Below, in pieces: positions 21,659-53,440 of a DNA stretch of 64,000 bases. The stretch spans positions 2,488 through 66,487 of the forward strand of contig CANRNY010000010.1 in assembly GCA_947632085.1 (NCBI GenBank). The letters run 5' to 3'. The notes beneath the pieces were generated by a model, which searched no databases, had not been told where the DNA came from, and worked only from the letters and a program-made list of their open reading frames with translations. Source of the DNA: an uncultured Bacilli bacterium (GTDB lineage: Bacteria > Bacillota_I > Bacilli_A > RF39 > UBA660). A program made the translations under genes and the position numbers. Every line of letters starts with the position of its first letter. The stretch's first letter is position 1.

Positions 21659-23344
21659 CTAACCAGGTAGTAATAAACTTGCTCCACTTGTTGGAATAGC
21701 TAAACCATATTGCAATAATTCATAACAAACAAATAATACTAATCCACCTGTACCTAGATTATTAAATATATCTGATACACTATTACCATTCTTATTCATT
21801 TCAACAACTTGGTTTGTTAACTCTTGATTATCTTCAACTATTTGATTTAATTGATCTGTTGTATAGTTTTGTAACATTTCAGCTTGGCTTTCAGCAAAGA
21901 AACCGCCTTTACCTACTAACCACATAATACTTGGTTTTTCAATTAATGATTTACCATTTAAAATATTTTCGGCTTCAGTAGCGTCTACGCCCATTTCATT
22001 TATGACATATTCTAGAGCTTCTTGATATGTATCAAAGACAGTATAGTTAGCACTTAAATCAGCTGGTAGTGCTTGTCTTAATAAATCGTAGTATTCTTGT
22101 TTAGCTGATGAATTAACAACAGTTAAATCAGAAGTTTCTTCAACAGTAGGAGTTGAAGCGATTGAACTATCAACGATAGTACTTGGCCCAATATTAGGTT
22201 CTGGCTCTCTAACTGGAGTTTTATCTATATTTGGATTTGGTAGAGGAGTTTTTGCAACACTTTCACCTTCAGTTATCACACTTGGTCCAATATTAGGTTC
22301 TGGTTCTCTAACTGGTGTTTTATTTATATTTGGATTTGGTAGAGGATTTTTTACAACACTTTCACCTTCAGTTATCACACTTGGCTCAATACTTGGTGTG
22401 GCAGCATGAATTGGTTCTTGAGTTAAACCTGGTTTAGGTACTGGATTTAGAGCAGGTTCTTTAACAATACCAGGTTGTGGAACAGTACTTGGTTCTTTTT
22501 CTAAACTAGGATTAACACCATATTCTACTTCCTCTTCCATTACTACTTCTTCTTCGGGTTGAGGATTATCATATTCTTTATTATCTTCATTATTCTTATT
22601 TAAATGTGGGAATTTCAAGTTAGGCAATAATAACAATAAAAGTAATAATAAATACCAATGTTCTACAATAAATTTAGCGGTAAATATAATGGGAGTTGCG
22701 ACTAGAAGTCCTAATGATTTAGCTAAGTCAACTACACCAAAGATACGTTCCTTATTACTTTTAGCTTGTTTTAATTCATTAATACAATTACTTATCTTTT
22801 TAACTTGTAAACCAAGTCCTTTTGGTAAGACAGTAAAAATAGCACGAATAGTAGCTTTCTTATCTAAGAATTCATTTTTATATCTTTCTTTTAATTGATG
22901 ACGATGATTATCAATTTCATTATCTAATAACTCTTCTAATTTCTTTAAATTTTCACTATCTTCAGCACTAAGATTGTCACAGCTTTTGATCTTTTTAATT
23001 TCAGCTTGAATCTTTCTAATCAAACGACCTCTTTTAACAGTAATATCTTTAGGGCTTTCCTTTTCCATAGACTTTTTAAGTTCAGCTTCTAATTGCTCTG
23101 TTTCAGTCTTAGATTCAGGAGTTTCAGTTTTAATAGATAAATTATTCATACTAATTGTTAATGCTGTATAAACTTGTTCTAACTCTTCAATACTTTTATC
23201 ATACTCTTCAGTAGTTATTTCATTATTTTGTTTTTTAGTTACTAATTCATTTCTTTTAGTCATATAAGCATTATAAACTTCTTCATTAGTACTACTTTCA
23301 TTAACTCCTAAGATATTATAATATTTTTCTATTTCTTCATTCAT
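21659..23344 (-). CDS. Membrane protein with an N-terminal J-like domain (no HPD), coiled coil, poly-Leu TM segment and Pro-rich tandem repeats
   Basis: KYYNILGVNESSTNEEVYNAYMTKRNEL resembles J-domain helices I-II. TM segment LLVATPIIFTAKFIVEHWYLLLLLLLLL. Two 33-aa repeats. The start was set to the ATG at 23344, 6 nt after AGGTG. Confidence 0.65.
   Translation of the reverse strand: MNEEIEKYYNILGVNESSTNEEVYNAYMTKRNELVTKKQNNEITTEEYDKSIEELEQVYTALTISMNNLSIKTETPESKTETEQLEAELKKSMEKESPKDITVKRGRLIRKIQAEIKKIKSCDNLSAEDSENLKKLEELLDNEIDNHRHQLKERYKNEFLDKKATIRAIFTVLPKGLGLQVKKISNCINELKQAKSNKERIFGVVDLAKSLGLLVATPIIFTAKFIVEHWYLLLLLLLLLPNLKFPHLNKNNEDNKEYDNPQPEEEVVMEEEVEYGVNPSLEKEPSTVPQPGIVKEPALNPVPKPGLTQEPIHAATPSIEPSVITEGESVVKNPLPNPNINKTPVREPEPNIGPSVITEGESVAKTPLPNPNIDKTPVREPEPNIGPSTIVDSSIASTPTVEETSDLTVVNSSAKQEYYDLLRQALPADLSANYTVFDTYQEALEYVINEMGVDATEAENILNGKSLIEKPSIMWLVGKGGFFAESQAEMLQNYTTDQLNQIVEDNQELTNQVVEMNKNGNSVSDIFNNLGTGGLVLFVCYELLQYGLAIPTSGASLLLPG
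22181..22400 (-). repeat. 99-bp in-frame tandem repeat, about 2.2 copies
   Basis: Units start at 22181, 22280 and 22379 (partial) and are about 90% identical. They encode PSVITEGESV.K.PLPNPNI.KTPVREPEPNIG. Confidence 0.95.
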
Positions 23345-23359
23345 AAATAACACCTACTC

Positions 23360-29913: not shown

Positions 29914-30143
29914 TAAATACACCTCTTAAATAGCTAATACCTATTACTATTCATCTCCAATTAGATATTTATACTTATAATTATACTACTTTCTTTAGGT
30001 ATTTACTTTATAATTTATTTTTATATTTTATTTATTAAAATTACCAATACTATTTATATAAGATTTATTGTTTTAAGTAGTAAAGAGTGTTAGAATACTT
30101 TTTAGAAAAGGACGTATTATATTTAAGTAATGGAGGTGGAATA

Positions 30144-32099
30144 ATGTTTAAATTAGTATCAAAATATAAACCAAGTGGTGATCAACCTAAGGCGATTGAT
30201 GAGTTAGTTAAAGGTATCAACGAAGGCAAGAAAGAGCAGGTTTTACTTGGTGCAACTGGTACTGGTAAAACTTTTACGATTGCTAATGTAATTGCAAAAG
30301 TTAATAAACCTACTTTAGTTTTGGCTCATAATAAGACCTTAGCTGGTCAACTTTATGCAGAGTTTAAAGAGTTGTTTCCTGAGAACCATGTTGAGTACTT
30401 TGTATCTTATTATGATTACTATCAACCAGAAGCTTATGTACCACAAAGTGATACTTATATAGAAAAAGATGCCTCTATAAATGATGAAATAGATGAACTA
30501 AGACATGGTGCTACTAGTGCTTTAATTAATAATCGTGATGTTATAGTAGTAGCTTCAGTATCTTGTATATATGGTATTGGGGAAAAAGAAGAATATGAAA
30601 AAATGATGCTTACTTTAAATGTTGGAGATACCATAAAAAGAAATGATATTATAAATAAATTAATAGATATGACTTATGAAAGAAGTGATTTAGACTTTCA
30701 TAGAGGGACTTTTAGAGTTAGAGGAGATTCAATAGATATTATTCCTGTTAATGAAAGATCTCATGGAATAAGAATAGAATTATTTGGAGATGAAGTTGAT
30801 CGTATTACAACATTTGATCCTTTAACAGGAGTGATTGTAGCTAATAAAAAAACAATTAGTATATTCCCGGCTTCACACTTTGTAACGGGACCAGAAAAAA
30901 TGCAAGAAGCAATAAGACGTATTGAAGCTGAACTTAAAGATAGATTAGAAGTACTACATAACAATAACAAATTAATTGAAGAACAAAGATTAAAAGAAAG
31001 AACTAATTATGATTTAGAAATGCTTAAAGAAACGGGATTTTGTAGTGGAGTTGAAAACTATTCAAGACATTTAGCGTTAAGAGGCGAAGGCGAAACACCA
31101 TCTTGTTTAATTGATTTCTTTCCTGATGACTTTTTATTAGTTGTTGATGAATCACATGTTACATTACCACAGGTTAGAGGAATGTATAATGGAGACAGGA
31201 TGCGTAAACAAACATTAGTTGATTATGGATTTAGATTACCTAGTGCTTTAGATAATCGTCCATTAAAATATGATGAATTTGAAAGTAAAATAAATCAAGC
31301 AATATATATTTCAGCTACACCTGGTGATTATGAACTAGAAAAGACAAATCAACAATATGTAGAACAAATAATAAGACCTACAGGATTACTAGATCCAACA
31401 ATTGAAGTAAAACCTACTGAAGGACAAATAGATGATATTATTGAACAGATAAATATTAGAAAAGAAAAGAATGAAAGAGTCTTAATTACAACATTAACAA
31501 TTAGAATGGCAGAAGAACTAACAAACTACTTAAAAGATGTAGGTATTAAAGTAGCTTATCTGCATAATGAAGTAAAAACCTTAGAAAGACTTAAGATTAT
31601 TCAAGAGTTAAGAATGGGTAAATACGATGTTGTTGTAGGTATTAACTTACTTAGAGAAGGTATTGATATACCAGAAGTTAGCTTAATATGTATTATGGAT
31701 GCTGATAAACAAGGATTCTTAAGAAGTAGTCGTAGTTTAATTCAAACAATTGGTAGATGTGCTAGAAATGAAAATGGCCATGTAATTATGTATGGTGATA
31801 TTATTAGTGAAGCGATGGAAGAATCTATTACAGAAACTGCACGTCGTCGTAAGATACAAGAAGAATATAATAAAGAACATGGTATTGTACCAAAGACAAT
31901 TATTAAAGAAATAAGAGAAGTAGTTAGTAATGTGGTTGAAGATACTAAGAGTACGAAAGATAAACCTAAGATGAGTAAGAAAGATAAAGAAGCATTACTA
32001 ATTAAGATAGAAGAAGAAATGAAAGAAGCTGCTAAACAATTAGACTTTGAAAGAGCTATGGAATTAAGAGATATCTTATTTGAAATGAAGAGTGAATAA
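30144..32099 (+). CDS. uvrB: Excinuclease ABC subunit B
   Basis: [20 protein letters not shown], Walker [13 protein letters not shown] box and a C-terminal UVR motif ([15 protein letters not shown]). The start was set to the ATG at 30144, after GGAGGTGG. Confidence 0.97.
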
Positions 32100-46282: not shown

Positions 46283-46430
46283 ATAACTTCCCCACTTCTT
46301 TTATAAAATCCAAGGTACACAATACCACATTTTGGGGTAAAAAACAAGTTTATTTATGGATTATTGGGATTATTTAACACTTAATACCATTTTATCTTTG
46401 ATTTTTTAGAATTTTGCCAAAAAATTATGA

Positions 46431-46477
46431 GTTATCGACCACTTTTTGACTTTTTATATACAAAATTGGTCGATAAC
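46431..46477. repeat. 11-bp perfect inverted repeat with a 25-nt spacer
   Basis: GTTATCGACCA (46431-46441) and TGGTCGATAAC (46467-46477). It is relatively GC-rich for this intergenic region. Confidence 0.9.
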
Positions 46478-46556
46478 TGCCGTGGTTTATAAAACTCTAA
46501 TATTAATGTATTTAATCAAATATGTATATTTTGAATGATTCTTTTTATTTTAAAAG

Positions 46557-47021
46557 TTATTTATAATATTTATTTATAATTTTACATATTTCTTCTATAT
46601 TATCTTTACTACTTGTTGGAATATGTACATTTTTTTTCTCTACCTTTATTCTTTTTAATTCATTTCCTATTTCATTAAGTTCCAAAAAATAAAAGTTTTT
46701 AGTCAAAATACTTACATATATTAAAATAATCGGAATATTTTTTTGATAAGCATAATAGGCGTTTGACGAAGAAATAGCGCAACTAATCATGTTTGGTGTT
46801 CTTATTAATGGTTGTATTATCTTTTGGGTTCCTTTTATTTGTATAAAAGCTATTTTCCCTGTCGGTCTGTCGTTTTCAAACATTTCAATCAAACCATCTA
46901 TTCCATAATCTCTTTCTGTAATATCCCTATATATTAAAACTCCATCATTATAAGCATCAATTTGAGATCTTATATAATCCTTAGAATTTGTTTCAATTTT
47001 ATGTGATTTAACTCTTGCCAT
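46557..47021 (-). CDS. DUF4365-like / PD-(D/E)xK-type nuclease-fold protein (154 aa)
   Basis: ERDYGIDGLIEMFEN...GKIAFIQIKG matches the DUF4365 core as I recall it (D...E/Q-x-K arrangement). The RBS AAGGAAAAAG and ATG lie 13 nt after the upstream stop. Confidence 0.55.
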   Translation of the reverse strand: MARVKSHKIETNSKDYIRSQIDAYNDGVLIYRDITERDYGIDGLIEMFENDRPTGKIAFIQIKGTQKIIQPLIRTPNMISCAISSSNAYYAYQKNIPIILIYVSILTKNFYFLELNEIGNELKRIKVEKKNVHIPTSSKDNIEEICKIINKYYK

Positions 47022-47034
47022 TTCTTTTTCCTTA

Positions 47035-48810
47035 TTATAATTTTTCTAAAACTTTTATATAGGTCATCACTTTTGAGTAATTAGCAATTTTCTTTGTATA
47101 AAAGGCCATTTCGTTAGTATTATATACAAGTTTTTCTGTATTTTTTGCAATTGTATCCATTTTTATATTACTTACAATTAATTCATTCTGAATCTCTCTT
47201 AAAGATTTATTCACTTCTTTTAATTCTTTGTATAAATAATATTGATTTTCCGTTATTTTATCCAGTTGTTCGATTATTGTATCTGCTCTTATTTCTTGCT
47301 CGTACATATTATAGGCACCATCGGCTCCATCTAACTTTTCGCATCTTCCAGATTCGAAGTAGTCAATAAATCTAGATACTGCAATAATATTTCTATATTT
47401 ACCATAAATAATATTATAACTATATATTTCATTTCTTAATTTTACATTATCTTCTAATAATTCTAAGATATAATTCATTTCGTATTTTATTTTTTCAATG
47501 TTTAATATATGTTCAATTTCATTTAAATTTTCTGTTTCATAACCATCTTCTAATATTTTTAATTCGTGATTTGCTTTATCAATTTTTTTAGATATTTCTG
47601 ATTTTTGTTCATTATATTTATCCATTGCTTTTTTATAATTTAATTCATTTGTTTTATTTAACTCATCATATTTGGTTTTTAAATTTTTTTTCATTTCTAA
47701 TTCATAATTGCTTTTTGCTTTTTTGTATTCTGACAATTTTTTATTATAAATTTTTAAGCTCTTTTCATATTTTTCTTTGAGTAATTCATTTTCTTCGTTT
47801 ACCTTTTTCTTGTTAAATAATCCTGGTTTTTTATTTATTGGTTCTTTTGGTTTTGATGGTTTAATTGGCACTTCTGTGTCGTCAATCGGACTCTTACCAC
47901 AAGATGGACAAACTATACTGTCTTTTGTTATTTCATTCCCACAGTGAATACATGCTACACATGATTTCTGTGGAGGTATTATTTTTATCAATTCATTATT
48001 TAGTGTTGCAATATTATTATTCAATTCAACTTTTTTATTTAATATTTTATAATTTAGATTGAAAGTTTCACAATCTGCTAAAAGCTCTTCTACTTTTAAA
48101 TCTAACTGTAAATCTTTATATCTTTGGTTTAATGAATATATATTAGTTTCAATAATTATTATTTCTTTCATATAATTTAATAATTCTTGTTTGTTATTAT
48201 ATATTTTTTCCTTATATTTATCATTGTCTTCTATTTCGTATTTATCCTTTAATTTATCTTCATAATAACTAAAATCAGTTTCCATTATGTTATCTAGTTC
48301 GTCACTAGAGTATGGAACAAAAAATAATTCATTTAAATATTTATTATACATTTCATCATAGTATGCGTACAATTTATAGTTGCTTTGCAGGTTAGATGTA
48401 TCTGGTATTGGTTTTAATATCCCCATTTTTTTTAAACTACTTTGCACAATTGAACTTAAACCGATTTCTTCTGATGTTAGGGAATTATTATATCCATTCG
48501 TATAATTAGTTATATATTGAAATTTATCTTTAATTTTTTCGGAATAATATTTATACTCAGTAAGATTACTTCTCATTTTTAGCAATATATCATCAATTTT
48601 TTTATCTTCTTCATTTAATACTGCTCCGAATACTGCATCTTCTTTTGTTATAAGTTTAGATGTTTCATAATCTACATCTATAGCCATAAAATAACCTCTA
48701 GCTATAATATTGCTGTTTATTATTCTCTCTTTAATTTCCCAAGAAGATTCATCGATTTTCATTTTATTTTTTAACACTATTTTTTCTGGTTCGTTTTCTG
48801 TTTTCTTCAT
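47035..48810 (-). CDS. Coiled-coil protein (591 aa) with a central double-CxxC zinc ribbon. No family recognised.
   Basis: CVACIHCGNEITKDSIVCPSCG sits between long K/E/N-rich heptad-like segments. No P-loop. GAGG RBS 5 nt before the ATG. Confidence 0.7.
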   Translation of the reverse strand: MKKTENEPEKIVLKNKMKIDESSWEIKERIINSNIIARGYFMAIDVDYETSKLITKEDAVFGAVLNEEDKKIDDILLKMRSNLTEYKYYSEKIKDKFQYITNYTNGYNNSLTSEEIGLSSIVQSSLKKMGILKPIPDTSNLQSNYKLYAYYDEMYNKYLNELFFVPYSSDELDNIMETDFSYYEDKLKDKYEIEDNDKYKEKIYNNKQELLNYMKEIIIIETNIYSLNQRYKDLQLDLKVEELLADCETFNLNYKILNKKVELNNNIATLNNELIKIIPPQKSCVACIHCGNEITKDSIVCPSCGKSPIDDTEVPIKPSKPKEPINKKPGLFNKKKVNEENELLKEKYEKSLKIYNKKLSEYKKAKSNYELEMKKNLKTKYDELNKTNELNYKKAMDKYNEQKSEISKKIDKANHELKILEDGYETENLNEIEHILNIEKIKYEMNYILELLEDNVKLRNEIYSYNIIYGKYRNIIAVSRFIDYFESGRCEKLDGADGAYNMYEQEIRADTIIEQLDKITENQYYLYKELKEVNKSLREIQNELIVSNIKMDTIAKNTEKLVYNTNEMAFYTKKIANYSKVMTYIKVLEKL

Positions 48811-48835
48811 ATAAACCTCGCTTATCTATAAAATA

Positions 48836-48866
48836 ATTCTACCCCCCCCCGCTAACTTTTTGTCAA
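48836..48866 (-). promoter_or_regulatory. Sigma-A-type promoter with a G9 tract in the spacer
   Basis: On the minus strand: TTGACA (48866-48861), a 19-nt spacer AAAAGTTAGCGGGGGGGGG, TAGAAT (48841-48836), then 25 nt including GAGG, then the ATG at 48810. Confidence 0.55.
48842..48850. repeat. C9/G9 homopolymer tract
   Basis: Nine consecutive C on the plus strand. This is by far the longest G/C run I noticed in this AT-rich window. Confidence 0.97.
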
Positions 48867-48868
48867 CG

Positions 48869-48895
48869 AAAAAGAAGAGTCTTTCTAACTCTTCT
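48869..48895 (-). terminator. Rho-independent terminator of the SHOCT gene
   Basis: AGAAGAGT, 7-nt loop, ACTCTTCT, followed by TTTTTC on the minus strand. It overlaps the stop at 48894. Confidence 0.7.
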
Positions 48896-49694
48896 AACTA
48901 TTTAATAATTCGTTTTTCTTTTTTTCGTATTCTTCTGCAGTAATAGCTCCCATATCTAGAAGTTCTTTATATTTTTTAATTTCATCAGCTGGAGAAATAG
49001 TTTGCATTATAGGTTTACCTTTATTTGTTTTTATTTCGTGAATACGATTTTTAATATAATTAACAACTTCATTAATATTATCTGGAGTAATAGCAGTTAA
49101 ATCGTATGCAAAGGAATTTTCATTAAAGTAGTTACTCTTAAGATTATTCATTAAACTAGATGCAGTTTCTAGTTGAATATAACCATAAGCAATTCCGGTT
49201 TGTTTAACTTGGATACCATTACAATCAACATAATATATTGTTTTTTCTCCATCAGTGGCATTACCAAAAATTAATGATTCGATAGCTAATCTAGTAACGA
49301 TAACTACTCTATCTTCATATACTTCCATATATCTGCCGCCAATACCATATATTCCGTATATTGCACCTGGTTTTGGTGATCTTTGGAAATAATTTAGATT
49401 AAAGCCACAATTTTTACAGAAGCTAGCTTCCTTTTTATTTTGAGTACCACATTTTGGACATAATTTAACATTTACATCATTTCCACATTTAACACAAAAT
49501 TTAGCTCCTACTTTATTTTGTGCTCCACAAGTTGCACAAATGACATATTCTTCATCGTTTGATTGATTAACATCTTTAGGAGTTTCTTCTTCGGCATTTA
49601 GTTCAACTTCTGTTAATTCACTACCACATATAGGACAGATATTTTCTTCACTTTCTACTTCTTTTTCACATTTATTACAATATTTTTTAGACAT
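48894..49694 (-). CDS. Triple zinc-ribbon / SHOCT-domain protein (266 aa)
   Basis: Three CxxC-x(n)-CxxC ribbons (CNKC..CPIC, CATC..CVKC, CPKC..CKNC), a central globular domain, and a C-terminal SHOCT-like KKYKELLDMGAITAEEYEKKKNELL. Confidence 0.75.
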   Translation of the reverse strand: MSKKYCNKCEKEVESEENICPICGSELTEVELNAEEETPKDVNQSNDEEYVICATCGAQNKVGAKFCVKCGNDVNVKLCPKCGTQNKKEASFCKNCGFNLNYFQRSPKPGAIYGIYGIGGRYMEVYEDRVVIVTRLAIESLIFGNATDGEKTIYYVDCNGIQVKQTGIAYGYIQLETASSLMNNLKSNYFNENSFAYDLTAITPDNINEVVNYIKNRIHEIKTNKGKPIMQTISPADEIKKYKELLDMGAITAEEYEKKKNELLNS

Positions 49695-49753: not shown

Positions 49754-49778
49754 AAAAAGAAGAGTTTAATACTCTTCT
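49754..49778 (-). terminator. pheT rho-independent terminator
   Basis: AGAAGAGT, 5-nt loop, ACTCTTCT, followed by a T-run on the minus strand. It overlaps the pheT stop. Confidence 0.75.
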
Positions 49779-53195: not shown

Positions 53196-53440
53196 TTTCC
53201 CTCCAATAAAAAAAATCTAAAACCAAGGGACGAAATAATATTCCGCGGTACCACCCTAATTCTAGAATTCTAGCACTCAATATAGATATAACGCATCTAT
53301 GTGCGGGTCTAACTCCAACGATGAATTTCATTATATTATTTATCTTTAGATGCTTTCAGCCGGTGACATCTAATCTCTAATTGAAGAATTTAATATAATT
53401 ACTAGGTTCGTCTTCTTCGTTTTTCTGTTCACTATTTTAG
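53196..53440 (-). promoter_or_regulatory. T-box riboswitch leader (Phe specifier) of pheST
   Basis: The minus strand carries the T-box core AATTAGGGTGGTACCGCGG (53260-53243), an upstream AGAGA motif, a candidate specifier GAAA-UUC-A (UUC at 53325-53323), and a U-run before the pheS RBS GGAGGG. Confidence 0.85.

What the first reader, a model, noticed from the sequence alone, without database searches (positions are those of the whole stretch)
48836..48866. G9 homopolymer inside the -35/-10 spacer of the cassette promoter: a likely slipped-strand phase-variation switch
Seen in sequence on the minus strand: TTGACA, then AAAAGTTAGC plus G9 (19 nt in total), then TAGAAT, then 25 nt with GAGG, then the ATG of the 591-aa gene. 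In DNA this AT-rich a 9-nt G/C run stands out, and it was the longest I noticed. Established knowledge: homopolymer tracts in promoter spacers change the -35/-10 distance by slipped-strand mispairing and switch expression. Known examples are Neisseria porA/opc poly-G/C and Mycoplasma hyorhinis vlp poly-A. Inference: a 19-nt spacer is suboptimal, so expression is off or low here. Loss of 1-2 G would give 18 or 17 nt and turn the promoter on. The potentially toxic nuclease cassette may therefore be stochastically expressed.
Basis: partly seen in the sequence, partly recalled or inferred. Interest (0 to 1): 0.75.

Follow-up and report, generated by a model that had tools for sequence, protein, structure and literature searches.

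The report
Length-variable poly-G tract in promoter
A run of nine G's sits between the two recognition boxes of a promoter in an uncultured rabbit-gut bacterium; its length differs between near-identical strains, as expected of a known kind of random on/off gene switch, here placed in front of a nuclease-containing gene pair.

Summary
On the minus strand, TTGACA, 10 nt, G9, TAGAAT, GAGG and ATG follow an intrinsic terminator. It is the only G/C run over 5 nt in 64 kb (about 0.003 expected).

Comparative data support a hypermutable promoter tract:
- Strains about 0.1% apart carry G9 or G10. Each state appears in two independent samples and tracks SNP haplotype. None of 32 A/T runs of 6-8 nt changed.
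- A sister species has the homologous promoter at the same pheT-typA site with G8 or G9, driving a different gene.
- In 1.4 Mb of related RF39-type genomes, G-run lengths are bimodal. Ten runs of G8-10 were found: six sit in TTGACA...TAnnnT contexts, two are coding frameshift switches in secreted-protein genes, and two were not interpretable.
- A second promoter locus keeps G9/G10 across orthologues 54-82% identical.

Lineage promoters peak at a 17-nt spacer. Every allele seen here gives 19 or 20 nt, so off/low is plausible, but no on allele or expression data exist.

The cargo is a coiled-coil zinc-ribbon protein plus a DUF4365/DREN nuclease with catalytic D-Q-K intact.

This is a new member of a known kind (porA, T. 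pallidum tp0126), in a lineage where it was not found described.

The parts
48873..48895 (-). Intrinsic terminator of the upstream zinc-ribbon/SHOCT gene. It insulates the promoter from read-through.
   Evidence: 9-bp stem, 5-nt loop, T-run. (-10.3 kcal/mol, z = -2.1). It is homologous to the pheT terminator of sister species L072.
48861..48866 (-). -35 hexamer TTGACA (perfect consensus)
   Evidence: Identical in strains and in sister species L072/L108-L110.
48851..48860 (-). Non-repetitive part of the spacer (AAAAGTTAGC)
   Evidence: It has diverged in the sister species (AAATCGTTTGT, 11 nt) while the total spacer stays at 19/20 nt.
48842..48850 (-). G9 homopolymer (C9 on the + strand); the hypermutable element
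   Evidence: unique in the window. G9/G10 between strains, concordant with haplotype. Logan contigs break here. No change in 32 A/T runs of 6-8 nt.
48836..48841 (-). -10 hexamer TAGAAT, flush against the G tract
   Evidence: Conserved in the sister species. A TAnnnT 0-1 nt after the tract is seen at 7 of 11 lineage tracts.
48816..48819 (-). Ribosome-binding site GAGG, 5 nt before the ATG
   Evidence: Conserved in L072.
47035..48810 (-). 591-aa cargo gene 1: coiled-coil protein with a central CxxC...CxxC zinc ribbon, function unknown
   Evidence: Only sub-threshold zinc-ribbon Pfam hits. No PADLOC, NCBIfam or PHROG hit. 14 homologues in 5.8 billion proteins. AF2 pLDDT 61, long helices, no significant fold hit.
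46557..47021 (-). 154-aa cargo gene 2: stand-alone DUF4365/DREN PD-(D/E)xK nuclease domain, 13 nt after gene 1 (same operon)
   Evidence: Pfam PF14280, 6.4e-16. PADLOC Aga_REase, 2.2e-11. PDB 9jsb DREN-APAZ, E = 0.006, with D42/Q61/K63 aligned to catalytic D41/Q60/K62.
46429..46481 (-). Inverted repeat (12-nt perfect arms, 25-nt loop) at the downstream edge of the cargo, shared with the sister species' different cargo
   Evidence: Absent from the empty site in L016.
48894..49694 (-). 266-aa zinc-ribbon/SHOCT gene lying between the pheT terminator and a second terminator copy. It is not driven by the G-tract promoter.
   Evidence: Absent in L072 and L016.

Best explanation
The G9 run is a hypermutable simple-sequence tract inside the spacer of a sigma-70-type promoter (TTGACA, 19 nt, TAGAAT). 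The promoter sits just after a terminator and drives a two-gene operon: a 591-aa coiled-coil zinc-ribbon protein and a 154-aa DREN-type nuclease.

Slipped-strand mispairing during replication adds or removes G's. That moves the -35 box relative to the -10 box, so sub-populations express the operon at different levels. The alleles seen (19 and 20 nt) lie beyond the lineage's 17-nt optimum, so the majority state is probably low or off, with 17-18-nt variants (G7-G8) as the expressing minority.

Shown: the anatomy; the uniqueness of the tract; length polymorphism between near-identical strains and in a sister species; conservation of the tract; lineage-wide recurrence; the 17-nt optimum.

Inferred: dependence of transcription on tract length; high-frequency reversible switching; the on/off assignment; the biological role of the cargo.
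For: - Anatomy.
- Uniqueness: (only G/C run over 5 in 64 kb; about 0.003 expected).
- Strain polymorphism: searches give G9 in the window, L001, L003 and L010, and G10 in L002, L004 and L005. One search shows that the two G9 contigs share one SNP haplotype and the two G10 contigs another, each from independent samples, about 5-8 differences per 5.4 kb apart.
- Internal control: the tract is the only indel in the 5.4 kb common to all strain contigs; 32 A/T homopolymers of 6-8 nt are unchanged.
- Assembly breaks: in Logan run ERR10663745 one contig ends in G9 and the next begins with G10. L111 and L102 also break at tracts.
- Sister species: same terminator, TTGACA, TAGAAT, RBS and ATG, with G8 (L108, L109) or G9 (L110).
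- Lineage-wide: in 1.37 Mb of RF39 loci, G-run counts fall 824, 154, 9, 1 for lengths 4-7, then rise to 5, 1, 3 for lengths 8-10; C-runs stop at 6. With the window's tract there are 11 runs of G7 or longer (one is G7). Six have an exact TTGACA 1-11 nt upstream and TAnnnT 0-1 nt downstream, and a seventh has TTGCAA. The background frequency of that arrangement is 2.5e-4, binomial P about 3e-16.
- Coding tracts: two further tracts are frameshift switches. L059 is broken at G9 and gives an intact 503-aa signal-peptide protein at G10. L090 is broken at G10 and open at G9.
- Second promoter locus: orthologous genes in L091 (G10, 18-nt spacer), L071/L105 (G10, 16 nt) and L103/L104. L103 and L104 encode the identical protein but carry G10 and G9 in two samples. 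The rest of the spacer is unrelated between these loci.
- Spacer census: TTGACA-N-TAnAAT peaks at 17 (32 instances) against 13, 5 and 6 at 16, 18 and 19.
- Experimental precedent: T. pallidum tp0126 has a poly-G between -35 and -10 with a 17-nt optimum, and tprL is active at G8 but near background at G10 (PMC7864442).
Against: - No allele with a 17- or 18-nt spacer was found in 9 assemblies of the two species. Both species sit at 19/20 nt even though they differ in tract length and flank length, so the optimum of this particular promoter might not be 17.
- Coverage of the strain contigs is only 2-5x and no reads were available, so within-population heterogeneity is inferred only from contig breaks. 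Co-existing strains could also produce those breaks.
- The G9/G10 difference tracks haplotype. That proves a real polymorphism but not rapid switching.
- There is no transcription start site or expression data.
- In several other lineage promoters the TTGACA lies only 1-3 nt from the tract. That does not fit a simple -35/-10 spacing model with the adjacent TAnnnT.
Confidence: 0.7

Rival explanations
1. The tract is mutationally unstable but has no regulatory consequence. The operon would be transcribed independently of tract length, by a -10-dominated promoter (the G's supply a partial extended -10 context) or by read-through of the modest upstream terminator, and the length differences would be neutral.
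For: Only 19/20-nt alleles are seen. The terminator is of moderate strength, -10.3 kcal/mol. The G at -14 matches half of the TG extended -10 motif.
Against: A neutral G8-10 run in a 27% G+C genome should decay by interruption. Instead it is kept in two species at this site and across orthologues 54-82% identical at a second site, while the flanking spacer sequence diverged completely. A perfect TTGACA is conserved next to the tract at six of the 11 runs (P about 3e-16). The run-length distribution is bimodal.
Confidence: 0.15
2. The G run is a fixed promoter or operator element, for example the binding site of a regulator or a rigid G-rich spacer that tunes promoter strength. It would be selected for its sequence and not for its mutability.
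For: The tract is always flush (0-1 nt) against the -10-like hexamer and is always poly-G on the sense strand. That is not required by a pure spacing model.
Against: Length varies between near-identical strains at three loci. The same kind of tract also occurs inside coding regions, where +/-1 G restores the reading frame; that is explained only by mutability. The strand preference is confounded by an 89% gene-strand bias and a +0.19 GC skew.
Confidence: 0.1
3. The tract, or its length variation, is a sequencing or assembly artefact: poly-G artefacts of two-colour Illumina chemistry, or homopolymer miscalls at low coverage.
For: Contig coverage is 2-5x. One contig start (L102) is garbled G-rich sequence.
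Against: The tract is internal and has identical flanks in 7 independent assemblies of this species. Each length is reproduced in two samples and is concordant with linked SNPs. Equivalent tracts appear in MAGs from unrelated studies and hosts.
Confidence: 0.03

Closest known systems
Neisseria meningitidis porA poly-G promoter-spacer switch (and opc poly-C)
   Same: A G homopolymer lies between the -35 and -10 hexamers of a sigma-70 promoter. Tract length sets the spacer length and therefore the transcription level (as summarised in PMC7864442; otherwise from general knowledge).
   Different: The host here is an uncultured low-G+C gut commensal of the RF39 Bacilli, not a proteobacterial pathogen. 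The cargo is not an outer-membrane protein. The observed alleles are longer than the optimum (19/20 nt), not at or below it. Expression dependence is untested.
Treponema pallidum poly-G promoters (tp0126, tprE/G/J, tprL)
   Same: Poly-G of 7-11 nt lies within or next to the promoter. For tp0126 it lies between -35 and -10 with an optimum at a 17-nt spacer. For tprL, G8 is active and G10 is near background. Length varies within and between isolates. Several such tracts are scattered through a small genome (PMC7864442).
   Different: The phylum differs. The cargoes there are outer-membrane proteins. Those cases have fragment-length and reporter data, which are lacking here.
Mycoplasma hyorhinis vlp poly-A promoter tracts; Campylobacter jejuni poly-G contingency loci
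   Same: Small, AT-rich, host-associated genomes carry a set of homopolymer tracts in promoters and 5' coding regions of surface-protein genes. Run lengths show the same bimodal signature (PMC8355987 listed; the vlp case is from general knowledge).
   Different: The vlp tracts are poly-A and span the whole spacer. Most C. jejuni tracts are intragenic. In the sample here, promoter tracts outnumber coding ones by about 7 to 2.
SPARDA short-Argonaute systems (DREN/DUF4365-APAZ plus pAgo)
   Same: The 154-aa cargo protein is a DUF4365/DREN domain with the catalytic D-Q-K triad conserved.
   Different: No APAZ domain and no Argonaute gene are present. The partner is an unrelated 591-aa coiled-coil zinc-ribbon protein. 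This is therefore not a SPARDA system. It shares only the effector domain.

Membership tests
SSR-mediated transcriptional phase variation (homopolymer in a promoter spacer) | A homopolymer of about 8 nt or more located between recognisable -35 and -10 hexamers, upstream of a gene with an RBS and start codon | tested here: met
   TTGACA, 10 nt, G9, TAGAAT, GAGG, ATG, directly after a terminator.
SSR-mediated transcriptional phase variation (homopolymer in a promoter spacer) | Tract length differs among closely related strains or populations while the flanks stay constant | tested here: met
   G9 versus G10 in strains about 0.1% apart, replicated in independent samples. G8 versus G9 in the sister species. 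32 control A/T runs unchanged.
SSR-mediated transcriptional phase variation (homopolymer in a promoter spacer) | The tract is maintained by selection (over-representation; conservation despite mutability) | tested here: met
   About 0.003 expected per window. Bimodal run-length distribution. Conserved at two loci across species while the spacer flanks diverged. Association with TTGACA/TAnnnT at P about 3e-16.
SSR-mediated transcriptional phase variation (homopolymer in a promoter spacer) | High-frequency, reversible length change within a clonal population | not testable with these tools
   No reads or isolates were available. Contig breaks at the tract are suggestive only.
SSR-mediated transcriptional phase variation (homopolymer in a promoter spacer) | Promoter activity depends on tract length (on, intermediate and off states) | not testable with these tools
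   Indirect only. The lineage spacer optimum is 17 nt, while the alleles here give 19/20 nt.
DUF4365 / DREN PD-(D/E)xK nuclease domain | Significant match to PF14280 and conservation of the catalytic Asp, Gln and Lys | tested here: met
   PF14280, 6.4e-16, 59 bits against a cut-off of 24. D42/Q61/K63 align with D41/Q60/K62 of NbaSPARDA DREN.
SPARDA short-pAgo defence system | DREN fused to an APAZ domain and encoded next to a short Argonaute (MID-PIWI) | tested here: not met
   The protein is 154 aa and consists of the DREN domain only. The neighbours are the 591-aa coiled-coil protein and typA. There is no APAZ or PIWI hit in Pfam or PADLOC.

The most novel reading that the evidence does not exclude
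RF39-type gut Bacilli carry a lineage-wide 'phasome' of G8-10 tracts, about 7 per Mb in the sample studied. Most are placed flush against the -10 box of promoters. The promoter between pheT and typA acts as a conserved, stochastically switched expression slot into which different cargoes have been exchanged: a 162-aa membrane zinc-ribbon protein in one species, and a coiled-coil sensor or scaffold plus a stand-alone DREN nuclease in this one. On this reading, a candidate new abortive-infection-type nuclease system is held under phase-variable control and is expressed in only a minority of cells.
Probability: 0.35. Interest if true: 0.65.

Novelty: new member of a known kind. Interest (0 to 1): 0.5.

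Why it matters
Simple-sequence phase variation has been worked out almost entirely in cultured pathogens such as Neisseria, Haemophilus, Campylobacter, Treponema and Mycoplasma. Searches of the held library found no description of it in RF39 or 'Candidatus Coprovivens'.

If these poly-G tracts are real switches, abundant but uncultured, genome-reduced gut commensals also diversify surface proteins and a nuclease-containing cassette by slippage. That has three consequences:
- Single consensus MAGs mis-state which genes are 'on'. Some genes look like pseudogenes, for example in L059 and L090.
- Assemblies break at these sites.
- Metagenomic read pile-ups could be mined to measure phasotypes in vivo.

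Pairing a stand-alone DREN nuclease with an unknown coiled-coil zinc-ribbon protein under such a promoter also gives a testable candidate for a new defence or toxin module.

Tried and rejected
- The species-representative genome scan with the 591-aa protein found no relative. The cassette is absent from the nearest species representatives.
- Two JGI metagenome scans found nothing: one for this promoter with any tract length and one for the second-locus promoter. Those lineages appear to be missing from that collection.
- An exact TypA look-up to find more strains found nothing on record.
- Distant homologues of the 591-aa protein (L012-L015) have no DUF4365 neighbour and no upstream G/C tract. 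The tract therefore belongs to the promoter slot and not to the gene family.
- The AlphaFold model of the 591-aa protein was poor (pLDDT 61, pTM 0.38). Foldseek returned only generic coiled-coil hits with E above 0.4. PDB sequence, PHROG, PADLOC and NCBIfam searches were empty. Its function remains unknown.
- Alternative -35 hexamers 17 nt upstream of TAGAAT (GACAAA) match the consensus at only 2 of 6 positions, by reading. Rejected.
- A G-quadruplex was rejected because a single G run cannot form an intramolecular quadruplex (general knowledge).
- The poly-G-on-sense-strand preference was considered as evidence for a strand-specific mechanism. It was set aside because 89% of genes and a +0.19 GC skew share that strand.

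Full report
**1. The observation**

Reading the minus strand gives TTGACA (48866-48861), AAAAGTTAGC, G9 (48850-48842), TAGAAT (48841-48836), a 25-nt leader containing GAGG (48819-48816), and the ATG at 48810 of a 591-aa ORF (47035-48810). The spacer is 19 nt, exactly as reported.

The run is the only G or C homopolymer longer than 5 in the 64-kb window. The longest A/T runs are 8. A first-order Markov model predicts about 0.003 runs of this length.

An intrinsic terminator (48895-48873; 9-bp stem, -10.3 kcal/mol) ends 6 nt before the TTGACA. The 83-nt intergenic region is therefore a compact terminator-promoter-RBS unit. The mechanical promoter scan misses it only because it allows 16-18-nt spacers.

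**2. Context**

The gene order on the minus strand is as follows:
- T-box leader (53426-53223)
- pheS
- pheT
- a 266-aa zinc-ribbon/SHOCT gene
- the G-tract promoter
- the 591-aa gene
- a 154-aa DUF4365 gene starting 13 nt later (46557-47021)
- an inverted repeat (46429-46481)
- typA

PheT places the organism among uncultured RF39-type Bacilli. The closest matches are rabbit-gut 'Lapin' MAGs at 96-97% identity. 'Candidatus Coprovivens' is at about 80%.

**3. Is the tract variable?**

Exact-protein look-ups recovered seven further contigs of this species from ENA and Logan assemblies. The tract states are:
- G9: L001, L003, L010 and the window
- G10: L002, L004, L005

In Logan run ERR10663745 one contig ends in G9 and the next begins with G10. 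In ERR10663742 the contig ends 20 nt past the tract. That is where a de Bruijn bubble caused by a length polymorphism would close; this is an inference.

The contigs are 98.9-99.8% identical to the window. In the 5.4 kb common to all of them, the two G9 contigs share one SNP haplotype and the two G10 contigs share another. Each length is thus reproduced in two independent samples and is a real polymorphism, not random low-coverage error.

The tract is the only indel in that common region, while 32 A/T homopolymers of 6-8 nt are unchanged. This shows tract instability on a short evolutionary scale. It does not by itself show rapid switching within a clone.

**4. The sister species and the insertion site**

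One close species (L016) has pheT followed directly by typA.

Another (L072) has, at the same place, the same terminator, TTGACA, TAGAAT, RBS and ATG-AAG-AA. It carries G8 and an 11-nt non-G spacer segment, again giving 19 nt. There the promoter drives a 162-aa zinc-ribbon membrane protein instead of the 591/154-aa pair. The same downstream inverted repeat follows.

Other assemblies of that species carry G8 (L109) or G9 (L110), and one contig breaks at the tract (L111).

So the promoter with its tract is older than the cargo, and the cargo has been exchanged between conserved boundaries.

In the window's species, the zinc-ribbon/SHOCT gene has additionally been inserted between two copies of the terminator (49778-49758 and 48895-48873).

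**5. A lineage-wide pattern**

In the 80 pheT-centred loci (1.37 Mb), G-run counts on the sense strand are as follows:

| Run length | 4 | 5 | 6 | 7 | 8 | 9 | 10 |
|---|---|---|---|---|---|---|---|
| G runs | 824 | 154 | 9 | 1 | 5 | 1 | 3 |

C-runs stop at 6. This bimodality is the usual signature of selected hypermutable tracts. With the window's own tract there are ten runs of G8-10 in 1.44 Mb, a density of about 7 per Mb.

Counting the single G7 run, there are 11 runs of G7 or longer. Six have an exact TTGACA 1-11 nt upstream and a TAnnnT 0-1 nt downstream, and a seventh has TTGCAA. The background frequency of the exact arrangement is 2.5e-4, so five or more in ten has a binomial P of about 3e-16.

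Two further tracts are coding-region switches:
- L059 is truncated at residue 43 with the assembled G9 and gives an intact 503-aa signal-peptide protein at G10.
- L090 is broken at G10 and open at G9.

Two runs (the G7 in L026 and the G8 in L065) were not interpretable.

Genes downstream of the promoter tracts include a camelysin-type signal-peptide protein (L035) and a 433-aa protein with a hydrophobic N-terminal segment that looks membrane-anchored or secreted (L075; my reading, no Pfam hit).

**6. A second promoter locus**

The genes behind the L071 and L091 tracts are orthologues with no Pfam family. Their promoters are:

| Locus | Promoter | Spacer |
|---|---|---|
| L091 | TTGACA-8-G10-TATAAT | 18 nt |
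| L071/L105 | TTGACA-5-G10-T-TATAAT | 16 nt |
| L103 | TTGACA-AAC-G10-TATGTGTTAGTAT | - |
| L104 | same as L103 but G9; encodes the identical protein, from another sample | - |

L102 starts in garbled G-rich sequence at the tract. More distant orthologues (L106, L107) lack the tract.

The tract has therefore been kept through 54-82% protein divergence while the rest of the spacer was replaced. It also varies in length between samples.

**7. Is 19-20 nt off-optimum?**

In the same 1.44 Mb, TTGACA-N-TAnAAT pairs peak at a 17-nt spacer: 32 instances, against 13 at 16, 5 at 18, 6 at 19, and a background of 2-4. The lineage therefore follows the canonical rule.

Experimental precedent comes from T. 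pallidum. The tp0126 poly-G lies between -35 and -10 and is optimal at 17 nt. The tprL promoter is active at G8 and near background at G10 (PMC7864442).

However, every allele seen in both species gives 19 or 20 nt (10+9/10 and 11+8/9), and no 17/18-nt allele was found. Either the off state dominates in the rabbit gut or this promoter's optimum differs. This remains unexplained (note 4).

**8. The cargo**

The 154-aa protein matches:
- PF14280 (DUF4365) at 6.4e-16
- the PADLOC Argonaute-associated REase model at 2.2e-11
- the DREN domain of a solved SPARDA complex, 9jsb, at E = 0.006

In the alignment, its D42, Q61 and K63 match the catalytic D41, Q60 and K62.

DREN is a collateral DNase/RNase. 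On its own it is a monomer with undetectable nuclease activity, and it is activated by tetramerisation on a filament (PMC12205087). No APAZ domain or Argonaute is present here, so this is not a SPARDA system.

The 591-aa partner is a rare protein: 14 relatives at 27-37% identity, none next to a DUF4365 gene in the three contexts examined. It is predicted to be mostly long helices around a CxxC...CxxC zinc ribbon and has no significant fold or family match. It may be a sensor or scaffold that oligomerises the nuclease, but that is speculation.

'Potentially toxic nuclease cassette' is thus half supported.

**9. Comparison with known systems and novelty**

In mechanism this is the porA / tp0126 type of switch, a homopolymer in a sigma-70 promoter spacer. 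Of the defining features:
- Location, inter-strain variability and selective maintenance were tested and met.
- Clonal high-frequency reversibility and length-dependent activity could not be tested.

Library searches found no report of SSR phase variation in RF39 or Coprovivens; all hits concerned pathogens.

I rate it a new member of a known kind. Its added interest lies in three points: the lineage-wide recurrence, the exchangeable cargo behind a conserved switchable promoter, and the unusual cargo.

**10. Verdict**

Hypermutable promoter tract: yes. Expression consequences and toxicity: untested.
- Confidence in the slipped-strand promoter-switch explanation: about 0.7.
- Interest: 0.5.

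Noticed in passing
L059:19572-19580: A coding-region G9 tract just after a signal peptide. The assembled G9 stops the ORF at residue 43. G10 gives an intact 503-aa surface-like protein. This is a translational phase-variation switch, assembled in its off state, in a related RF39 MAG.
   Followed up: yes
L090:13011-13020: A coding-region G10 tract after MKMEKIAN. G10 gives a 15-aa stub. G9 opens a signal-peptide ORF that runs to the contig end.
   Followed up: yes
L091:16425-16434; L071:21600-21609; L103/L104 about 35-50 nt upstream of the gene starts (1201 and 1025): A second conserved G-tract promoter in front of an orthologous gene of unknown function (about 390 aa). Tracts are G10, G10 and G10/G9, with spacers of 18 and 16 nt in L091 and L071. 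The length differs between two samples that encode the identical protein.
   Followed up: yes
window 46429-46481 (also L072:12969-13017, L092:4225-4273): An inverted repeat with conserved arms of 12-14 nt (CAGTTATCGACCAA / TTGGTCGATAACTG) and a 25-nt loop. It bounds the cargo here and in the sister species. It recurs after an unrelated 1357-aa gene in a distant relative, with a diverged loop. Its nature is unknown: terminator, operator or small mobile element.
   Followed up: partly
window 49758-49778 and 48873-48895: Two near-identical terminator hairpins (AGAAGAGT...ACTCTTCT) flank the 266-aa zinc-ribbon/SHOCT gene. This suggests the gene was inserted by duplication of, or recombination at, the pheT terminator. 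The sister species has a single copy.
   Followed up: partly
window 48851-48860 versus L072:12404-12414: The non-G part of the spacer differs in sequence and length between the two species (10 versus 11 nt). The tract differs inversely (G9/10 versus G8/9), so both species sit at 19/20 nt.
   Followed up: partly
L016-L095 (1.37 Mb) and the window: All 11 G/C runs of 7 or more are poly-G on the sense strand of the downstream gene, and none is poly-C. This is confounded by an 89% gene-strand bias and a +0.19 GC skew.
   Followed up: partly
L102:1-40: The contig starts in garbled G-rich sequence (AGAGGTGGAGGGGGGTGGAGGATGA) exactly where the orthologous loci have G10. This is an example of an assembly failing at these tracts.
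   Followed up: partly
window 53223-53426 (-): A T-box leader (Rfam RF00230, 100 bits) upstream of pheS, as expected for a Firmicute-type pheST operon.
   Followed up: no
window 22181-22448, inside ORF 21659-23353 (-): A 99-bp tandem repeat (2.1-2.7 copies, 82-92% matches) lies inside a 564-aa ORF with no Pfam family. It may be a repeat-containing surface protein.
   Followed up: no
window 30087-32099 (+): uvrB lies on the opposite strand to nearly all other genes in this part of the window. This explains the local reversal of GC skew at 30-32 kb.
   Followed up: partly
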